From the UHGV virus genome UHGV-0162320: a stretch of 10,748 bases of DNA, one strand, 5' to 3'. Position numbers and translations under genes: made by a program. Position 1 is the first letter of the stretch. Each line of letters opens with the position of its first letter. Below, piece after piece: positions 1 to 7,536 of the stretch. The notes beneath the pieces are model-generated. The model ran no database searches, was not told where the DNA came from, and saw only the letters and a list, made by a program, of their open reading frames with translations. The stretch is from a virus.

Positions 1-355
1 AGTCGACACGCTGCTCGACCAGCAGCTCATTGCCCTGCGCCAGCGCCCAAACAGTGTCGACGTAACGACCAACGGCTTCGACCATTTCCTCATCTACCTG
101 CGGGCCGGAAGTATCATCCGGGTGCTCAGCAAGAGGATAGGATCCAAGGAACATCGCGACGTTGCAACCTGCATAGTGCTCCGGGTGGCTCTGGCGGTTG
201 CGCAGCACCTTTTCGGCAAGTGCATGCGCTGCAGTGCCCTCGATTGCAAAAGTTGTTTCTTTATCCGGTTGTGTGGCCTCCAGCGCCAGACTTCCTGGGC
301 AGCGCATCCATCGATGCGCTGATGATGGAGAAAGTTGTGCATGAACGTCTGGCAT
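1..355 (-). CDS. PD-(D/E)XK-type nuclease, DUF2800-like (N-terminal 118 codons; gene runs off window start)
   Basis: Absent from the ORF track because there is no in-window stop. Minus-strand ATG at 355-353, GGAGGG 7 nt upstream, 2 nt after the stop of the preceding gene, open to position 1. Translation [51 protein letters not shown]... carries the LSPSS..RW..CPGS and EGTAAH motifs I recall from phage Cas4-like DUF2800 nucleases. Confidence 0.6.
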
Positions 356-357
356 GA

Positions 358-1260
358 TTAACCCTCCAGTGCTTTTTCAGCCAGGGTGATTACTTCAGCG
401 AGATTTTCATCCGTTACTTCACCAAGTTTCCTGGCTCCCTGTTTTTCCAGAATTGCAATAGCTTCTGCCCGGTAACCCCCTTTTGCTAACTGGAGGATCA
501 ACCCTTCAGCTTGTTTGCGTAGTGCCGCGAAATCAATTGTATGGTCATCTTTGGCGTCATTATTCTGGCTGGAATTTGCTGCGTCTCTGCGTGCAAATTC
601 TTCCTGCAGCTGAAGGTACTCAACACGGTTGATCTCGATATGGCCTTTTTTAAGCATCTCGTTCAACTTGCGTAAGGTATGGAGTTCACTGGCTGCTGTG
701 CCGGATACATTTTTGACGTAAAACGGCCCCGTGCGTTCTCCATCTTTGTTACTGGCCTTTTTCGGCTTAACTTCATCACGCCCATCTGCAGGTGCATCAA
801 GTAGCTGCTCGGCAAAAGCACGTCGCTCGCCGATGGTTGGCAGGTCGTCCCAGAACTTAAGGATGTTACGGGACAGGTCCAGGAGAGCAGGTTTAAGCAG
901 CGCCCTGGCTCGTTTGACGCCCTGCAATGCGCTGTCGAGAGCATCAATCTGAACAACTCGTTTATCGCCTTCAGCATCACGGTAGGCAACAGCACGTTGC
1001 AGCATGTCTTCTGTGATAGGGGTGGCTACCGGGTAGAAACCAGCCAGTGCGATAACGTCGCTGAACTCCAGATCATCCAGTGTCATTGCCGCTGACATAT
1101 TTTCAGTTTCAGTTGCTGTATCCCGACATTCCTGCACTCGTGAAATCGTGTCAGGATGCATAACAATGCCTGATGCCATTGTGCGGATAAGACGTTCAAG
1201 CAGCGCATTATGTTGTGCCAGAAGTTGATTATTAAGTTCTAGACTGGTTTCTAAACTCAT
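358..1260 (-). CDS. hypothetical early-operon protein, 300 aa, acidic; function not recognised (possible recombination partner of the downstream nuclease by position only)
   Basis: Complete 300-aa ORF in track; ATG at 1260 with GAGGA 7 nt upstream; start overlaps stop of upstream small ORF (ATGA); several spurious ORFs in other frames are embedded in it. Confidence 0.75.
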
Positions 1261-1427
1261 ACTGTGGTCCTCGCTACAAGGAGAATGAAAGTGATGATCA
1301 GACCGAGCGCAGTGGCAACGGCCAGACCGGTCATCAAATCGAAGTTTTTACGGCGATAACGGAGAACATCGCGCCCCGTCAGTCGATGGATGTGTTCAGG
1401 TTTCATCGGTTGTATTCCTTTTTTCAT
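1257..1427 (-). CDS. small protein with C-terminal transmembrane helix (about 49-56 aa); start ambiguous (ATG 1427 or ATG 1406)
   Basis: Track ORF 1257..1439; hydrophobic C-terminus [26 protein letters not shown]; stop overlaps start of the 300-aa gene, suggesting translational coupling; AAGGA lies upstream of ATG 1406. Confidence 0.5.
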   Translation of the reverse strand: MKKGIQPMKPEHIHRLTGRDVLRYRRKNFDLMTGLAVATALGLIITFILLVARTTV

Positions 1428-1463
1428 ATCGGGGAGCACGCTGTTGCGAGTGCGCTTTCAGAC

Positions 1464-1491
1464 ATAAAAAAGCCCGTCACGTGAGGCGGGC
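1464..1491 (-). terminator. rho-independent terminator on minus strand (tL1-like position)
   Basis: Plus-strand ataaaaaa + GCCCGTCACGTGAGGCGGGC; on minus strand this is a GC-rich hairpin around the palindrome TCACGTGA, followed by a T-run. Confidence 0.5.
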
Positions 1492-1522: not shown

Positions 1523-1717
1523 TCAGTTGGTATTGTGCGTACGTGGTACCACAAGGTTGAAGCGGACACGCCAGTGCGTTGCAATGGTATGCAGGAAAGC
1601 ACCACATCCAGGGCAGTGCTCATAACATTCGTTGATTTGGTATCGTTTTGGCTTTGGTGTCAGAAGCTGTGTTTGGCAAGCAGGGCATTCACCTTTGAGC
1701 GGTTTATACGTTTTCAC
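1523..1717 (-). CDS. small Cys-rich zinc-ribbon-like protein (64 aa, GTG start)
   Basis: Track ORF VKTYKPLKGECPACQTQ...NECYEHCPGCGAF with CxxC...CxxxHCxxC spacing; AGGA 7 nt upstream of GTG; sits between a putative early-left promoter region and the 1464-1491 terminator. Confidence 0.45.
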   Translation of the reverse strand: MKTYKPLKGECPACQTQLLTPKPKRYQINECYEHCPGCGAFLHTIATHWRVRFNLVVPRTHNTN

Positions 1718-1912
1718 GCCGTTTCCTCATTCAGTTCACTTTGGTGGTTCGGCGGCTTCGACTTGTATCAGTAGACAGTGCTTCGCCGCACCCCAAAGGG
1801 AACTTACTGACCCGTATTGCCGACATCCTGTCCCGCCACGGTCCCGACGCATGGTTTAGAGTCGCGCCGTTCGACTTGTGGCTAAAGATACAATTTGAGT
1901 TGTATTATGTAA

Positions 1913-1926
1913 ACCACAAATGTGGT
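1913..1926. promoter_or_regulatory. palindrome ACCACA-AA-TGTGGT, candidate protein-binding site in early-left control region
   Basis: Perfect 6-bp inverted arms; further TGTGG copies at about 1877 and 1931; AT-rich surroundings. Confidence 0.3.
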
Positions 1927-2039: not shown

Positions 2040-2663
2040 CTAACGTTTACGGCGGTAAATACGGTGTTCGATCATTACACCTATGATCTGTAAGTTCATA
2101 TCTGCACTACGAAAAATAGGGTAATCAGGATTTAGGGGGATTAATTCAAAGTCGTCGATGCCGATTCCTAATGGACGGTATTTTTTAAATGTAGCTTCGT
2201 GACCGTCGTTTTTGGCGACAACAAACTCCCCTGGTGCAGGACATAGATCAGGATCGATGATAACAATGTCTCCTTCTTTAAACTCTGGTTGCATGCTGTC
2301 GCCATCGATACGTAATGCGAAGCATGTTTCTGGAATGTCAGAGTCTGCCAAAATATATTCAAATTCCCCTGTCAGATCTGTTATGTCTCTTGCTTCTGTA
2401 AGCTCTCCTGCCTGAACGTAACTTAATATAGGTATGCGTCTGGTACTTATCTCCGCGAGAGGCATAATATTTTTACCGTTCAGTAGCCAGTCTGGGCTAC
2501 ATTTCAAGGCCTTAGCCAGATCCAGAAGATTGCGTGGCTTTCTGGTTCGTCCACTTTCGATGGATTCTATGGATTGTTGGCTAACCCCTGCAGAATTCGC
2601 TACTTCCACTTGAGTCATTCCTAATTCCAAACGACGTGCTTTAAAACGGGCTGCGAGAGACAT
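2040..2663 (-). CDS. CI-like repressor, N-terminal XRE-family HTH plus C-terminal S24 (LexA-like) autopeptidase domain
   Basis: ATG at 2663 (MSLAARFKARRLELGMTQVEVANSAGVSQQSIESIESG...) with AAGGA upstream; Ala-Gly cleavage site in VQAGE, Ser motif GDSM and a downstream Lys (ATFKKY) match the LexA/lambda CI autocleavage architecture. Confidence 0.9.
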   Translation of the reverse strand: MSLAARFKARRLELGMTQVEVANSAGVSQQSIESIESGRTRKPRNLLDLAKALKCSPDWLLNGKNIMPLAEISTRRIPILSYVQAGELTEARDITDLTGEFEYILADSDIPETCFALRIDGDSMQPEFKEGDIVIIDPDLCPAPGEFVVAKNDGHEATFKKYRPLGIGIDDFELIPLNPDYPIFRSADMNLQIIGVMIEHRIYRRKR

Positions 2664-2686
2664 GGGATTAGTCCTTCTGGGTTGTA

Positions 2687-2708
2687 TTAATGTGTATCCC
2701 CACATTAA
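2687..2708. promoter_or_regulatory. operator candidate: perfect inverted repeat TTAATGTG-tatccc-CACATTAA
   Basis: 8-bp perfect arms with 6-bp spacer in the divergent intergenic region between repressor and cro-like genes; direct repeats GTTGTATT at 2681-2688 and 2722-2729 nearby. Confidence 0.5.
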
Positions 2709-2726
2709 AAACAATTTTTGTTGTAT

Positions 2727-5192: not shown

Positions 5193-5346
5193 AGGTTGGT
5201 ACATTTTAACTAATTGAATTTAAAGGCCAGTACCAACTGTACCATCTGTACCAACCTAATTACTAAGAACCCCATATATATATATAAGTCGCTTGGGGAA
5301 AAGGTTTGAAAAGAGCTGGTACAGGTGGGTACAGGTTGGTACAGGC
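5174..5346. repeat. iteron-type replication origin: 12-bp inverted iteron pair, three direct 9-bp GTACCA iterons, (TA)n unwinding element, three inverted GGTACAGG iterons
   Basis: TGTACCAACCTC (5174-5185) and GAGGTTGGTACA (5192-5203); GTACCAACT/GTACCATCT/GTACCAACC at 5230-5256; catatatatatataag at 5273-5288; GGTACAGGT x2 and GGTACAGGC at 5318-5346. Confidence 0.6.
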
Positions 5347-5400
5347 CGAACAAGGAATTTTTTGCACATAACAGCGTGTAATAAGCGAATCGGAACTGCG

Positions 5401-5409
5401 TTATCCACA
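5401..5409 (+). promoter_or_regulatory. consensus DnaA box TTATCCACA
   Basis: Exact 9-mer match to the DnaA box consensus, with a partial inverted GGATAA 8 nt downstream; lies 55 bp beyond the iterons. Confidence 0.35.
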
Positions 5410-5473
5410 CCCACGGATAAACAAACGTGGTTCTCAGAAAATTTTTTCGTAGCAAAACGTAGAGGTCAGAGCT

Positions 5474-5896
5474 ATGCGTAATATTCAACAGGTTTTAGAG
5501 CGCTGGGGTGGCTGGGCAGCGAGTGAAGGTGGTAGTGTCTACTTTCCTCCTGTTGCAGCCGGGTTTAAGAATCTGCTACCCGCGACGCAGTCTGGAAGGC
5601 TGAAATGCAGTGACAATGACGGTCTTATCATCAACTCCGCTATGAGCTGCCTGAAGAAAAAAGATCCGTATCTGTGCACGCTCCTTGAGTGGCATTACGT
5701 CCAGGCCATGCCCGTGCGGGCGATGGGTGAGAAGCTCGGCGTATCTCACACCCACGTTCTGAAGAGGCTTCAGGCGGCAGAGGGATTTATTGACGGTTGC
5801 TTAGCCATGCTGGATGTGGTGCTCGAAATGGATCAGTCGGTTCAGTCAAAGCCTCAGGCTATCAGGACTTTGCGTAGGAGCTGCTCGGCGGCATAA
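5474..5896 (+). CDS. late-gene antiterminator, Q family (QuuD-like)
   Basis: ATG 5474 with GAGG upstream; MRNIQQVLERWGGWAA...VAAGFKNL...LKRLQAAEGFIDGCLAMLDVVLEMD parallels my recollection of E. coli DLP12 QuuD (MRDIQMVLERWGAWAA...AAGFKGL...). Confidence 0.75.
   Translation: MRNIQQVLERWGGWAASEGGSVYFPPVAAGFKNLLPATQSGRLKCSDNDGLIINSAMSCLKKKDPYLCTLLEWHYVQAMPVRAMGEKLGVSHTHVLKRLQAAEGFIDGCLAMLDVVLEMDQSVQSKPQAIRTLRRSCSAA
5869..5896 (+). promoter_or_regulatory. candidate late promoter (pR'-like) overlapping the 3' end of the Q gene
   Basis: TTGCGT (5869-5874), 16-nt spacer, CATAAT (5891-5896); lambdoid phages place pR' directly downstream of Q. Confidence 0.35.
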
Positions 5897-5927
5897 TATC
5901 CAGCAATCAATCACGTAAGGGAACCAG

Positions 5928-6269
5928 ATGGCTCTGATCAGCGTTCGCAACAGATTTGAAAGCTTCATGGAACAGAGGTACCCAGACCTGTCGTTGCAGG
6001 TCAAAGGTAATATTAGCGCATCAATGAAGGCTCAACTTGGCATCAGGATTGAACGAGAATTGTACAGTGAAGATGTTACTTACTGTGATTCAGCAGTTCA
6101 GTTGATGTGGACACTCTTTCAGGCAGGTGTTCTGGCCGAACGAAGAGCTACCAGCGTTACGCTTCCTGCGCTGAAGGCAAAGCCGGATAGCTTCTACGAT
6201 GCGGGTTATAACGAAGGTATTCAGGACTGTCGTAAACATCTGACGGCATCAGGCATCAAGGTAAGATAA
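5928..6269 (+). CDS. hypothetical protein, 113 aa, unrecognised
   Basis: ATG 5928 with AAGGGAA 6 nt upstream; clean ORF; followed by terminator structures. Confidence 0.7.
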   Translation: MALISVRNRFESFMEQRYPDLSLQVKGNISASMKAQLGIRIERELYSEDVTYCDSAVQLMWTLFQAGVLAERRATSVTLPALKAKPDSFYDAGYNEGIQDCRKHLTASGIKVR

Positions 6270-6336
6270 AAAATAGTTGTGGAATTCCAAAAAGCCGATT
6301 AGCCTGATATCCGTTGAAAACAGTTCATCACGAAGA

Positions 6337-6363
6337 GGCTTCCGCAAGGGGGCCTTTTTTATT
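6337..6363 (+). terminator. rho-independent terminator candidate
   Basis: GGCTTCC-GCAA-GGGGGCC (7-bp stem with two G-U pairs, GNRA loop) followed by TTTTTTATT. Confidence 0.5.
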
Positions 6364-6589
6364 GCCCCATTCTGGGGAAAAGTTAATAAAACAGGGCTTT
6401 CGCTGCGAAAAAACGCTATGCAGTTTTTGCCCTTTTTTATGCACCTTTTATTCACTCGAATTTCGTCATTCTGGACCACTTAAGTTGATTAAATAGGCCT
6501 TTCATCGCAAATCTATTGCGAGCGGGGATCGTGTGGTTCCTATAACATACATTATGTTAAATAACCTCCTTTTTTAACAAATTTAACAA

Positions 6590-6613
6590 GGTTCGCTATG
6601 GCGAACTTTTTTT
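6590..6613 (+). terminator. rho-independent terminator (tR'-like) upstream of lysis genes
   Basis: GGTTCGC-tatg-GCGAAC perfect stem followed by TTTTTTT. Confidence 0.7.
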
Positions 6614-6714
6614 GTATTCAGGGCCCACCGAAGGACGGCTCATAACCCAATCCTACGGGCGTATACGCAGGGCCCGCCTTTCAACAACACCCCGTAATGG
6701 CGGAGGTGGGAAGT

Positions 6715-7056
6715 ATGAAAATGCACAATGCTCCTCATTCCTGGCCTGACTTACTGGAACTCTTACAAAGTTGGTGGCGTGGAGATACGCCGTTGGGCGC
6801 AGTGGTTATGTCAATTGTTATGGCTGGTTTGCGCATTGCCTATTTTGGCGGTGGCGGCGGCTGGAAACGAAAAACGCTTGAGATTTTGCTCTGTGGTGCT
6901 CTGACGCTGACCTTTGCATCCGCTCTTGAGTATGTCGGATGGCCTAAATCACTTTCTGTTGCCATTGGTGGTGGGGTGGGGCTGATCGGTGTCGATGCTA
7001 TTCGTGGGGCTGCAATGCGAGTAATCGGTAACAAATTTGGTGGCTCTAAGGAGTAA
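6715..7056 (+). CDS. holin with lambda S-like dual-start motif (113 aa)
   Basis: GGAGGTGGG RBS 8 nt before ATG 6715; begins MKMHN (Met1-Lys2-Met3, as in lambda S107/S105); hydrophobic segments; C-terminus GLIGVDAIRGAAMRVIGNK resembles lambda S GYIGTDSIGSLIKRFAAKK; immediately precedes the endolysin. Confidence 0.8.
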   Translation: MKMHNAPHSWPDLLELLQSWWRGDTPLGAVVMSIVMAGLRIAYFGGGGGWKRKTLEILLCGALTLTFASALEYVGWPKSLSVAIGGGVGLIGVDAIRGAAMRVIGNKFGGSKE

Positions 7057-7059
7057 TTT

Positions 7060-7536
7060 ATGCAGGTACTAAATTCCCAGCGTAAAGCTTTCCTTGATAT
7101 GGTGGCTTGGTCAGAAGGAACGGATAACGGGCGACAACCGACACGTAATCACGGTTATGATGTTATTGTTGGCGGCGAACTGTTTACTGATTACTCTGAT
7201 CACCCTCGCAAACTTGTCACGCTAAACCCCAAACTCAAATCAACAGCCGCCGGACGTTACCAGCTTCTTTCCCGTTGGTGGGATGCTTACCGTAAACAGC
7301 TTGGTTTGAAAGACTTCTCCCCCAAAAGCCAGGACGCAGTGGCATTGCAGCAGATTAAAGAGCGTAGCGCTTTACCTATGATTGATCGCGGTGATATCCG
7401 TCAGGCTATCGACCGTTGCAGCAATATCTGGGCTTCACTGCCGGGTGCTGGTTATGGCCAGTTCGAGCATAAGGCTGACAGCCTGATTGCAAAATTCAAA
7501 GAAGCAGGCGGAACGGTCAGAGAGATTGAGGTATGA
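7060..7536 (+). CDS. R: endolysin, lambda R-type lytic transglycosylase
   Basis: 158 aa; roughly 94% identical to lambda R as I recall it ([54 protein letters not shown]...); catalytic Glu in WSEGT conserved; AAGGAG RBS. Confidence 0.95.

What the first reader, a model, noticed from the sequence alone, without database searches (positions are those of the whole stretch)
1..1439. Early-left operon: small membrane protein, acidic 300-aa protein and DUF2800-like nuclease
Three translationally coupled minus-strand genes (stop/start overlaps of ATGA and 2 nt). The last is a Cas4-like PD-(D/E)XK nuclease by its N-terminal motifs. The 300-aa protein in front of it sits where lambda has bet, so it may be a single-strand annealing or other recombination partner, but I cannot assign it to any known family. 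The 5' small protein has a C-terminal membrane helix and could be a host-acting Kil or exclusion-type factor.
Basis: partly seen in the sequence, partly recalled or inferred. Interest (0 to 1): 0.45.

Follow-up and report, generated by a model that had tools for sequence, protein, structure and literature searches.

The report
Uncharacterised partner gene of phage nuclease
The start of a prophage's early leftward operon encodes a small membrane protein, a 300-residue multi-domain protein of unknown function and a Cas4-like nuclease; the 300-residue protein is not a known DNA-annealing protein but an enlarged member of an unstudied protein family that sits just upstream of this nuclease in many unrelated phages.

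Summary
The three minus-strand genes are real and tightly packed. The first junction is an ATGA overlap. The second is a 2-nt spacer, not an overlap. The window is an E. coli prophage, 100% identical to strain F11 over bases 1-2000.

The last gene is a genuine DUF2800 nuclease with a Cas4/AddB-type four-cysteine signature and RecB-family catalytic motifs. It heads the published duf2800-gp2.5-polA module. That module's annealing protein is the Gp2.5/Enc34-type SSB, encoded just beyond the window edge.

That C-terminal domain links it to a web of "unknown function" PHROGs (phrog_408 and others). Members lie upstream of DUF2800, usually with overlapping stop and start codons, in phages of Proteobacteria, Firmicutes and Bacteroides.

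My best reading (confidence 0.38) is an accessory or adaptor subunit of the nuclease/recombination module. The 49-aa first gene encodes a basic, tail-anchored membrane protein, conserved only among enterobacterial relatives. Its function is untested.

The parts
1..355 (-). First 118 codons of a 433-aa DUF2800 (Cas4/AddB-like PD-(D/E)XK) nuclease. The gene continues beyond the left edge of the window. The in-window part holds the conserved H5, S11, W16, C19, G40, T41, H44 and E114.
   Evidence: Pfam PF10926 E 1.6e-23 on the fragment and 1.2e-109 plus PDDEXK_1 8.8e-11 on the full gene in L001. phrog_69 'exonuclease' 4e-32. Conserved motifs from an alignment of 15 phage homologues.
362..367 (-). 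GGAGGG Shine-Dalgarno for the nuclease gene. It lies inside the last codons of the 300-aa gene, 6 nt before the ATG at 355.
   Evidence: Read from the sequence.
358..1260 (-). 300-aa protein of unknown function (phrog_6784).
   Evidence: ORF. phrog_6784 E 1.5e-179 over the full length. 588 homologues, none with a Pfam domain. Only 78 representatives at 50% clustering among 1.84 billion proteins. AF2 model with mean pLDDT 84.7.
1174..1254 (-). Residues 3-29 of the 300-aa protein: an N-terminal helix with a heptad pattern. Positions a are L3, N10, H17, L24 and positions d are L7, L14, L21, M28. N10 is nearly invariant. Inferred to be a dimeric coiled coil.
   Evidence: AF2 helix 3-29. Heptad register. 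N10 conserved in >=90% of a 21-sequence alignment. The N-helix HMM also hits YeP5, APSE-1 P53 and Burkholderia vB_E332 gp45.
766..1083 (-). Residues 60-165: an all-helical domain with nearly invariant L108, A111, W137 and R146.
   Evidence: pLDDT above 90 across this stretch. Conservation. The helical-domain HMM hits only YeP5 and APSE-1 P53 among 14 distant phages.
559..732 (-). Residues 177-234: a beta-beta-alpha-beta mini-domain plus a helix (RxGPFY...EIxKVEYLQL). It is optional and mobile. Many relatives lack it, some carry it on the N-terminal side, and unrelated 500-aa YdfE_C proteins also have it.
   Evidence: Secondary structure. Presence, absence and permutation in relatives. P0185 context and its Pfam YdfE_C hit.
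364..531 (-). Residues 244-299: a C-terminal three-helix bundle (..LAKGGYRxEA..IL..FGAKKLGEV.DE.L..VI..). This is the domain shared with the phrog_408-like small proteins that precede DUF2800 in many phages.
   Evidence: pLDDT 81-92. phrog_408 3.3e-5 and phrog_33976 1.3e-22. tblastn to YeP4-6 and APSE phages. HMM hits in diverse phages. PHROG cross-hits. BFVD hits.
1257..1406 (-). 49-aa basic, tail-anchored membrane protein (phrog_11981). Its stop overlaps the start of the 300-aa gene (ATGA). Alternative in-frame starts are ATG 1427 and GTG 1439.
   Evidence: ORF. phrog_11981 E 3e-36 aligning to residues 12-60 of the 60-aa ORF. PGAP annotation in F11. pI 11.4 and TM 27-45. Found directly upstream in 77 of 81 loci that have it. 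The motif [HY]RLTGxD plus a TM helix is kept in distant relatives L083-L085.
1465..1491 (-). GC-rich hairpin (GCCCG...CGGGC) followed by a T run, just upstream of the small gene. It looks like a terminator, but its role is unknown.
   Evidence: Read from the sequence. The stem appears in the MFE fold, but the fold is no more stable than shuffles, z -0.24. The consensus scan missed it because the loop is too long. Homology with phage vB_EcoM-689R2 extends to 1519 and so includes it.
1885..1913 (-). Candidate early-left promoter (TTTACA, 17 nt, TATCTT). It overlaps an 18-bp palindrome, ATACAActcaaaTTGTAT (1888-1906), whose sequence recurs at 2711-2733 and 2753-2771 between the repressor and cro genes. 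These are inferred to be OL and OR operators.
   Evidence: Promoter scan (the count does not exceed the shuffles, so the match alone is weak). Repeats D1, D7, I1 and I3.

Best explanation
The region is the promoter-proximal end of the early leftward operon of a temperate E. coli phage. That operon carries the known duf2800-gp2.5-polA replication/recombination module.

The nuclease is a Cas4/AddB-like Fe-S PD-(D/E)XK end-resection enzyme. The annealing/SSB partner is the Gp2.5/Enc34-type protein encoded right after it, outside the window.

The 300-aa protein is an enlarged member of an uncharacterised superfamily. These proteins have an N-terminal amphipathic helix, a variable or charged middle, and a conserved C-terminal three-helix bundle. 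They are encoded just upstream of DUF2800, usually with overlapping stop and start codons.

I propose that it is a non-enzymatic accessory or adaptor subunit of the nuclease/recombination machinery. It would dimerise through the N-terminal coiled coil and dock through the C-terminal bundle onto a conserved partner, most likely the adjacent nuclease. The fast-evolving N-terminal domains would contact something variable, such as a host factor, DNA ends or the small membrane protein.

Shown: gene order, tight coupling, domain architecture, superfamily links and the lack of any enzyme or SSAP signature.

Inferred: dimerisation, docking, the identity of the partner, and any effect on nuclease activity.
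For: Context:
- Bases 1-2000 are 100% identical to E. coli F11. There the order is small gene, 300-aa gene, DUF2800, PF10991 Enc34/Gp2.5 SSB, Nmad5, family-A DNA polymerase ... VRR-NUC, methylases, SNF2, integrase.
- The duf2800-gp2.5-polA module is described in PMC8093625.

Synteny starting from the protein:
- 87 of 88 loci with a relative of the 300-aa protein have DUF2800 downstream. It follows directly (tblastn gap of 6-14 nt) in 73 of the 81 loci that also carry the small gene; the other 8 show a gap of about 520 nt.
- This includes relatives of only 27-38% identity.
- Small proteins carrying only the C-terminal domain lie directly upstream of DUF2800 in 3 of 4 look-ups.

Synteny starting from the nuclease:
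- 14 diverse DUF2800 phages were sampled. An HMM of the C-terminal domain was run against all 1471 ORFs of those loci.
- It hit only ORFs on the nuclease strand, upstream in the same operon: YeP5 8e-29, APSE-1 P53 1e-23, Streptococcus Javan38 3e-9, Roseobacter RDJL Phi2 1.5e-7, Staphylococcus P240 1.2e-3, Klebsiella Seifer 2.4e-3. Stenotrophomonas AXL_1 came in at 2e-7 on iteration. There were no off-operon hits.
- PHROG cross-hits tie phrog_6784 to phrog_408, 18562, 3709, 38276, 32389, 18196 and 7721.

Stop/start overlaps or tiny gaps with the nuclease gene recur in these phages.

Evolution: the N-terminal part shows a median 76% identity, against 88% for the C-terminal domain, 91% for DUF2800, 94% for the SSB and 93% for PolA.

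Structure: a confident AF2 model shows discrete domains joined by low-confidence linkers. The N-terminal helix has a heptad pattern with a conserved Asn at an 'a' position.
Against: - There is no direct evidence of any physical interaction. No gene fusion with DUF2800 turned up in the ORFs sampled.
- The domain was detected by HMM in only 7 of 14 sampled DUF2800 phages, with 2 more borderline. In K1H, Jerseyvirus, Teewinot and Salvo I see only a similar architecture by eye. In DSS3-P1 the gene directly upstream is an unrelated protein with a dGTP diphosphohydrolase N-terminal domain.
- Conserved adjacency is equally compatible with a host-directed early function.
- A DUF2800 nuclease is dispensable in phage Bas14 (bioRxiv 10.64898/2026.07.14.737667). 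An obligatory complex is therefore not implied.
Confidence: 0.38

Rival explanations
1. The 300-aa protein is a host-directed early protein. It could be a Gam-like protector of phage DNA ends (an inhibitor of RecBCD or AddAB) or another anti-defence factor. It would then be placed beside the recombination genes as gam is in lambda.
For: In lambda the order is kil-gam-bet-exo, so a nuclease inhibitor sits in the equivalent upstream position. The protein is helical, mildly acidic and probably dimeric. Its N-terminal two thirds evolve faster than every neighbour and show domain loss and permutation, as expected under an arms race. It is among the first genes of the early operon.
Against: It matches no anti-defence or Gam family in Pfam, PHROGs or PADLOC. 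The conserved C-terminal domain is shared between phages of Firmicutes, Bacteroides and Proteobacteria, whose end-processing nucleases differ. This fits a conserved phage partner better than a host target.
Confidence: 0.2
2. The 49-aa tail-anchored membrane protein and the 300-aa protein form a membrane-tethered organiser of phage DNA replication and recombination. This would be functionally analogous to phi29 p16.7, which has a TM helix, a coiled coil and a small helical DNA-binding domain (from my own knowledge of phi29, not tested here).
For: The two genes overlap by ATGA, and the small gene lies directly upstream of the 300-aa gene in 77 of the 81 loci that have it. The small protein keeps a basic cytoplasmic segment, the motif [HY]RLTGxD and a TM helix in relatives whose 300-aa protein is only 27-38% identical. 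The 300-aa protein supplies a coiled coil and a small helical C-terminal domain.
Against: The small membrane gene is absent from the more distant members of the superfamily in Streptococcus, Staphylococcus, Burkholderia and Dhillonvirus phages. It cannot therefore be part of the core mechanism. In some relatives an extra gene (DUF7666) is inserted between the two. No DNA-binding signature was detected.
Confidence: 0.12
3. One reading: the 300-aa protein is a new single-strand annealing protein that works with the nuclease as Bet works with Exo.
Confidence: 0.05

Closest known systems
duf2800-gp2.5-polA module of phages (Steczkiewicz et al. 2012, PMC3424549; Front Microbiol 2021, PMC8093625)
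   Same: The order is the same: DUF2800 nuclease, then a PF10991 Gp2.5/Enc34-type SSB, then a family-A polymerase. A divergently transcribed VapE-type primase-helicase is present too.
   Different: The passages of PMC8093625 that I read describe a three-gene module and do not mention an upstream gene. Here, and in many other phages, a further conserved gene precedes the nuclease. In this lineage it has grown to 300 aa, and a small membrane protein gene has been added.
phrog_408-like small phage proteins, for example Streptococcus phage Javan38_0034, Staphylococcus phage P240 GP46 and Hamiltonella phage APSE-1 P53
   Same: They share the C-terminal three-helix domain and the position directly upstream of DUF2800.
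   Different: Most are 100-130 aa: a helix, a charged linker and the bundle. The window protein adds a 105-residue helical domain and a beta-beta-alpha-beta mini-domain. All of them are annotated 'unknown function'.
Lambda Red region (kil-gam-bet-exo)
   Same: It is an early leftward operon with a small gene followed by recombination genes. There is tight coupling between the gene upstream of the exonuclease and the exonuclease gene.
   Different: The nuclease belongs to the Cas4/AddB-like DUF2800 family, not to the lambda Exo family. The annealing protein is Gp2.5-like and lies downstream of the nuclease. The 300-aa protein shows no homology to Bet or Gam.
Cas4 / AddB / AdnA-type Fe-S PD-(D/E)XK nucleases
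   Same: The family shows an invariant C19 with C246-x2-C249-x5-C255, D133, D146-x-K148 and Q162...Y166. A DUF2800 protein of phage Bas14 was modelled as AdnA/RecB-like.
   Different: DUF2800 proteins carry a conserved C-terminal half (P328, G329, K331, R340 and others) that the PDDEXK_1 nuclease-domain match (residues 7-255) does not cover. They are phage-encoded and free-standing.

Membership tests
DUF2800 (PF10926), Cas4-like PD-(D/E)XK nuclease | Profile match above the Pfam gathering score | tested here: met
   84 bits against a cut-off of 21 for the 118-aa in-window fragment. 367 bits for the full gene in the identical F11 sequence.
DUF2800 (PF10926), Cas4-like PD-(D/E)XK nuclease | Catalytic D...D/E-x-K and QxxxY motifs | tested here: met
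   D133, D146-x-K148 and Q162...Y166 are invariant in 15 diverse homologues. They lie just outside the window. Only E114 and the N-terminal motifs are inside it.
DUF2800 (PF10926), Cas4-like PD-(D/E)XK nuclease | Four-cysteine (C...C-x2-C-x5-C) Fe-S signature of Cas4/AddB | tested here: met
   C19, C246, C249 and C255 are present in 15 of 15 sequences. Only C19 is in the window. Metal binding itself cannot be tested here.
Single-strand annealing proteins (RecT/Red-beta, Erf, Rad52/Sak, Sak3/DUF1071, Sak4, Gp2.5), for the 300-aa protein | Sequence or fold similarity to any SSAP family | tested here: not met
phrog_408-like superfamily (uncharacterised), for the 300-aa protein | C-terminal domain of about 55 aa with the motif ..G(Y)(K/R).E....L...(F/Y)GA..(L/I/V)(S/G).(L/V)..E.(Y/L)..V(I/L) | tested here: met
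   The window protein hits phrog_408 at 3.3e-5 and phrog_33976 at 1.3e-22. Javan38_0034 hits both phrog_408 (2.3e-38) and phrog_6784 (8.4e-5). HMM hits. Alignment.
phrog_408-like superfamily (uncharacterised), for the 300-aa protein | Encoded on the same strand upstream of a DUF2800 gene | tested here: met
   87 of 88 loci. Distant relatives. Small proteins with only the C-terminal domain, 3 of 4. Diverse phages.
duf2800-gp2.5-polA module | Gene order nuclease, PF10991 SSB, family-A polymerase | tested here: met
   F11 context, identical to the window over bases 1-2000. The SSB and polymerase genes are outside the window.
Kil-type or superinfection-exclusion small proteins, for the 49-aa protein | Homology to a characterised Kil, Sie or Imm family, or toxicity or an exclusion phenotype | tested here: inconclusive
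   No Pfam, NCBIfam or PADLOC hit. Only phrog_11981, 'unknown function'. A phenotype cannot be tested with these tools.

The most novel reading that the evidence does not exclude
The phrog_408-like proteins, including this 300-aa version, are a previously unrecognised third component of one of the most widespread phage recombination/replication modules. DUF2800 matched 1764 of 50,697 phage records. The component would be a dimeric adaptor whose C-terminal bundle docks on the DUF2800 nuclease. It would couple end resection to the Gp2.5-type annealing protein, or to a host or membrane factor. Functionally it would do, as a separate polypeptide, what the C-terminal domain of Red-beta does for lambda Exo.
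Probability: 0.25. Interest if true: 0.6.

Novelty: new variant of a known kind. Interest (0 to 1): 0.42.

Why it matters
The DUF2800-Gp2.5-PolA module occurs in a large share of sequenced phages. DUF2800 matched 1764 of 50,697 phage records. Its nuclease has just been shown to trigger a retron defence. The module's biochemistry has hardly been studied.

A conserved gene coupled to the nuclease is an obvious missing piece. If it is an adaptor or regulator of the nuclease, three things follow. Attempts to reconstitute the system, or to use the nuclease and annealase for recombineering, would need it. It could modulate how defence systems sense the nuclease. A dozen PHROGs now labelled 'unknown function' would gain an annotation.

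If it is instead host-directed, it would be a new family of early takeover or anti-defence proteins with a modular architecture.

The immediate practical result is negative. The 300-aa protein should not be annotated as a Bet-like recombinase.

Tried and rejected
- AF2 with only close homologues (alignment A1) gave an unusable model, mean pLDDT 50. Adding distant representatives (A2) gave pLDDT 84.7.
- PDB sequence and profile searches found nothing apart from a chance myoglobin hit at E 0.16.
- NCBIfam and PADLOC found nothing for the 300-aa or 49-aa proteins.
- hhalign against lambda Bet was negative.
- The 5.8-billion-protein search with the C-terminal domain profile returned only fragments of the same enterobacterial family, plus Sodalis and Serratia pieces.
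- IMG/VR scans with single distant relatives found nothing. The diverse alignment was too variable for the scan.
- Correlating identity levels across loci did not single out a co-evolving partner. All leftward-operon genes correlate alike, rho 0.7-0.84.
- The hairpin at 1465-1491 is not more stable than shuffled sequence. I leave its role open.
- There are no tRNA genes and no Rfam families in the window.
- I looked by eye for a beta-clamp-binding motif and for a helix-hairpin-helix reading of the C-terminal domain. Neither fits convincingly, and no Pfam HhH family matched.
Full report
WHAT IS THERE

The window is part of a temperate E. coli phage. Bases 1-2000 are 100% identical to prophages in E. 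coli F11, BH100 and Ecol_542. They are about 95% identical to the induced phages vB_EcoM-689R2, 611R5 and 606R2.

On the minus strand lie three genes:
- a small ORF at 1257..1439;
- a 300-codon ORF at 358..1260;
- the first 118 codons of a gene that starts at 355 and runs off the left edge of the window.

The second is TAA-tc-ATG, which is a 2-nt spacer and not an overlap. The downstream genes each have a Shine-Dalgarno inside the preceding gene: GAGGA 7 nt before ATG 1260, and GGAGGG 6 nt before ATG 355.

The small gene most likely starts at ATG 1406, giving 49 aa. That start has an AAGGAA 8 nt upstream, is the one PGAP uses, and is where the 49-position phrog_11981 profile begins.

To the right lie a LexA/CI-type repressor (2040..2714, minus strand), a Cro-like HTH gene, a VapE-type primase-helicase, a Q antiterminator and lysis genes.

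A sigma-70-like promoter on the minus strand (TTTACA, 17 nt, TATCTT; 1913-1885) overlaps an 18-bp palindrome, ATACAActcaaaTTGTAT. Its sequence recurs twice in the cI/cro intergenic region. I read these as PL/OL and OR, by inference. The promoter match alone is weak, because the scan count does not exceed shuffled sequence.

Between PL and the small gene lie an unannotated 64-codon zinc-ribbon ORF and a GC hairpin followed by a T run (1465-1491). The role of the hairpin is open.

THE NUCLEASE

The 118-aa fragment hits Pfam DUF2800 at E 1.6e-23. The full 433-aa gene in F11 hits DUF2800 at 1.2e-109 and PDDEXK_1 at 8.8e-11.

I aligned 15 homologues from phages of Proteobacteria, Firmicutes and Bacteroides. 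The following are invariant:
- C19 together with C246-x2-C249-x5-C255, the Cas4/AddB four-cysteine pattern;
- D133 and D146-x-K148;
- Q162...Y166.

Only the N-terminal motifs (H5, S11, W16, C19, G40, T41, H44, E114) fall inside the window.

A recent preprint shows that a DUF2800 protein of phage Bas14 is dispensable, looks like the AdnA/RecB resection nucleases, and triggers a type IX retron (10.64898/2026.07.14.737667).

THE CONTEXT DECIDES THE 'BET' QUESTION

In F11 the operon continues as DUF2800, a PF10991 Enc34/Gp2.5-type ssDNA-binding protein (E 2.4e-44), Nmad5, a family-A DNA polymerase, then VRR-NUC, two methyltransferases, an SNF2 helicase and the integrase.

This is the published duf2800-gp2.5-polA module. 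The Gp2.5 family is counted among the single-strand annealing proteins (PMC8093625). RefSeq names the APSE-1 homologue 'Gp2.5-like ssDNA binding protein and ssDNA annealing protein'. The annealing role is thus already filled by the gene after the nuclease.

The 300-aa protein has no similarity to any SSAP:
- no Pfam hit at E<=1;
- only PHROGs of unknown function;
- no PDB sequence or profile hit;
- hhalign against lambda Bet gives probability 0.4%;
- Foldseek PDB finds nothing.

WHAT THE 300-AA PROTEIN IS

It is phrog_6784, matched over its full length at E 1.5e-179. The family is narrow. There are 588 homologues at E<=0.001 in 5.8 billion clusters; the 120 listed carry no name other than 'hypothetical' or 'uncharacterised' protein and no Pfam domain. 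Only 78 representatives appear among 1.84 billion 50%-identity clusters.

With a diverse alignment, AF2 gives a confident multi-domain model, mean pLDDT 84.7. The pTM of 0.44 reflects flexible linkers. The domains are:
- Helix 3-29. Its heptad pattern has L3/N10/H17/L24 at 'a' and L7/L14/L21/M28 at 'd', with Asn10 nearly invariant. I infer a dimeric coiled coil.
- A disordered linker.
- A helical domain, residues 60-165, with conserved L108, A111, W137 and R146.
- A beta-beta-alpha-beta mini-domain, residues 177-234.
- An acidic linker.
- A three-helix bundle, residues 244-299.

The mini-domain is optional. Many relatives lack it, and some have it moved to the N-terminal side. It also occurs in unrelated 500-aa YdfE_C proteins of lambdoid early-left operons.

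THE SUPERFAMILY AND ITS SYNTENY

Starting from the protein:
- 87 of 88 loci with a relative carry DUF2800 downstream. It follows directly (tblastn gap of 6-14 nt) in 73 of the 81 loci that also carry the small gene; the other 8 show a gap of about 520 nt that I did not resolve. The one locus without DUF2800 holds the YdfE_C protein, which shares only the mini-domain.
- Relatives of 27-38% identity keep the position.
- The C-terminal bundle alone is found in Yersinia phages YeP4-6 and in Hamiltonella APSE P53, again just upstream of the exonuclease and the Gp2.5-like gene.

Starting from the nuclease:
- I fetched 14 diverse DUF2800 phages and searched all 1471 ORFs of those loci with an HMM of the C-terminal domain.
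- Every hit lay on the nuclease strand, upstream in the same operon: Streptococcus Javan38 at 3e-9, Roseobacter RDJL Phi2 at 1.5e-7, Staphylococcus P240 at 1.2e-3 and Klebsiella Seifer at 2.4e-3. Stenotrophomonas AXL_1 came in at 2e-7 on iteration.
- Bacteroides BC669P3 and Burkholderia vB_E332 are borderline.
- The search converges on 7 of 14 phages with no off-operon hits.

PHROG cross-hits connect phrog_6784 with phrog_408, 18562, 3709, 32739, 38276, 36047, 32389, 18196 and 7721. All are annotated 'unknown function', and none is in Pfam.

By eye, K1H gp40, the Jerseyvirus '13.88 kDa' protein, Teewinot gp47 and Salvo gp69 have the same plan: an N-terminal amphipathic helix, a long charged linker and a small helical C-terminal domain. 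I could not show homology for these.

As a reverse test I looked up small proteins that carry only the C-terminal domain. Three of four overlap the start of DUF2800. The fourth abuts the SSB gene in a prophage that has lost the nuclease.

HOW IT PROBABLY WORKS

The protein has no enzyme signature. It has an oligomerisation helix, flexible linkers and a small conserved terminal domain. Its gene is coupled to the nuclease gene across phyla.

Its N-terminal two thirds evolve faster (median 76% identity) than its C-terminal domain (88%) and the neighbouring DUF2800 (91%), SSB (94%) and PolA (93%).

The simplest reading is an adaptor or accessory subunit of the nuclease/recombination machinery. The conserved bundle would dock on a conserved partner, most likely the nuclease. 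The variable part would contact something variable. I put this at 0.38. All interaction steps are inferred.

Rivals:
- A Gam-like or other host-directed early protein (0.20). Rapid evolution and its position in the operon favour this. Conservation of the domain across hosts with different nucleases argues against it.
- A membrane-tethered organiser formed with the 49-aa protein (0.12). The coupling and the conserved [HY]RLTGxD-plus-TM small protein in enterobacterial relatives favour this. The absence of the small gene elsewhere argues against it.
- A new SSAP (0.05).

THE SMALL PROTEIN

It is 49 aa with pI 11.4. It has a basic N-terminal segment and a single C-terminal TM helix at residues 27-45, so it is tail-anchored. 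It belongs to phrog_11981 and has no other match. It lies directly upstream of the 300-aa gene in 77 of 81 loci. In a few relatives a DUF7666 gene is inserted between them. A Kil or exclusion role is neither supported nor excluded.

NOVELTY AND VERDICT

The operon and the nuclease are ordinary members of a known module, and the exact sequence is in public genomes. Two things appear not to have been described in the papers I could search. One is that a conserved, uncharacterised gene family accompanies DUF2800 across phage groups. The other is that this prophage lineage carries an enlarged multi-domain version together with a small membrane protein.

I rate the finding as moderately interesting at 0.42. 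It is a testable lead on a widespread module. It is not a surprise in kind.

Noticed in passing
window 1523-1717 (minus strand): A 64-codon ORF with two CxxC pairs lies between the candidate PL and the hairpin. It looks like a zinc ribbon, with weak hits to zf-IS66 (1.4e-5) and Zn_ribbon_TFIIB and a faint Lar-like PHROG. PGAP does not annotate it in F11. It is present in only 18 of 88 related loci, so it behaves like a moron or variable early gene.
   Followed up: partly
window 1888-1906, 2711-2733, 2753-2771: An 18-bp palindrome, ATACAAnnnnnnTTGTAT, overlaps the candidate PL. Its sequence recurs twice between the repressor and cro genes. These are probably the OL and OR operators of this immunity type.
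   Followed up: partly
window ~7470-10748: The window is mosaic. Identity to the F11/BH100 prophage ends near 7470, inside the lysis region. Bases 8811-10729 match at 99.8% a different lambdoid prophage region elsewhere in the same genomes (hypothetical protein plus the end of a ClpP-like protease/capsid fusion gene). No complete E. coli genome holds 5200-10748 contiguously. Few long ORFs lie between 8400 and 10748.
   Followed up: partly
window 559-732 (residues 177-234); P0140-P0142, P0161; P0185 and P0188 (L090 6001-7503): The beta-beta-alpha-beta mini-domain (RKGPFY...EIxKVEYLQL) behaves as a mobile module. Many family members lack it, others carry it on the N-terminal side, and it also sits in 500-aa proteins with a YdfE_C domain in lambdoid early-left operons just before xis and int.
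   Followed up: partly
L110 5001-5920: In one prophage a 104-aa protein that keeps only the C-terminal domain is followed directly by the Gp2.5-like SSB gene. No DUF2800 gene is present. This looks like a deletion that removed most of the 300-aa gene and the nuclease.
   Followed up: no
L001 3395-10438 (outside the window, downstream in the same operon): The operon continues with Nmad5 (a nucleotide-modification-associated domain), a PerC/ANR-like regulator, a SAM methyltransferase, VRR-NUC, a cytosine methyltransferase and an SNF2 helicase. This hints at a DNA-modification function in this phage. Nmad5 is present in only 16 of 88 related loci.
   Followed up: no
L083 5284-5997; L079 5296-6001: In a few relatives an extra gene (237 aa, DUF7666 in L083) is inserted between the small membrane gene and the 300-aa gene. 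This breaks the ATGA coupling.
   Followed up: no
window 1465-1491 (minus strand): A GCCCG...CGGGC hairpin plus T6 lies immediately upstream of the small gene. It is conserved with phage vB_EcoM-689R2, in which the genes upstream are on the opposite strand. It could be a terminator, bidirectional or a read-through control point, or a protein-binding palindrome (its core is TCACGTGA). The fold is no more stable than shuffles.
   Followed up: partly
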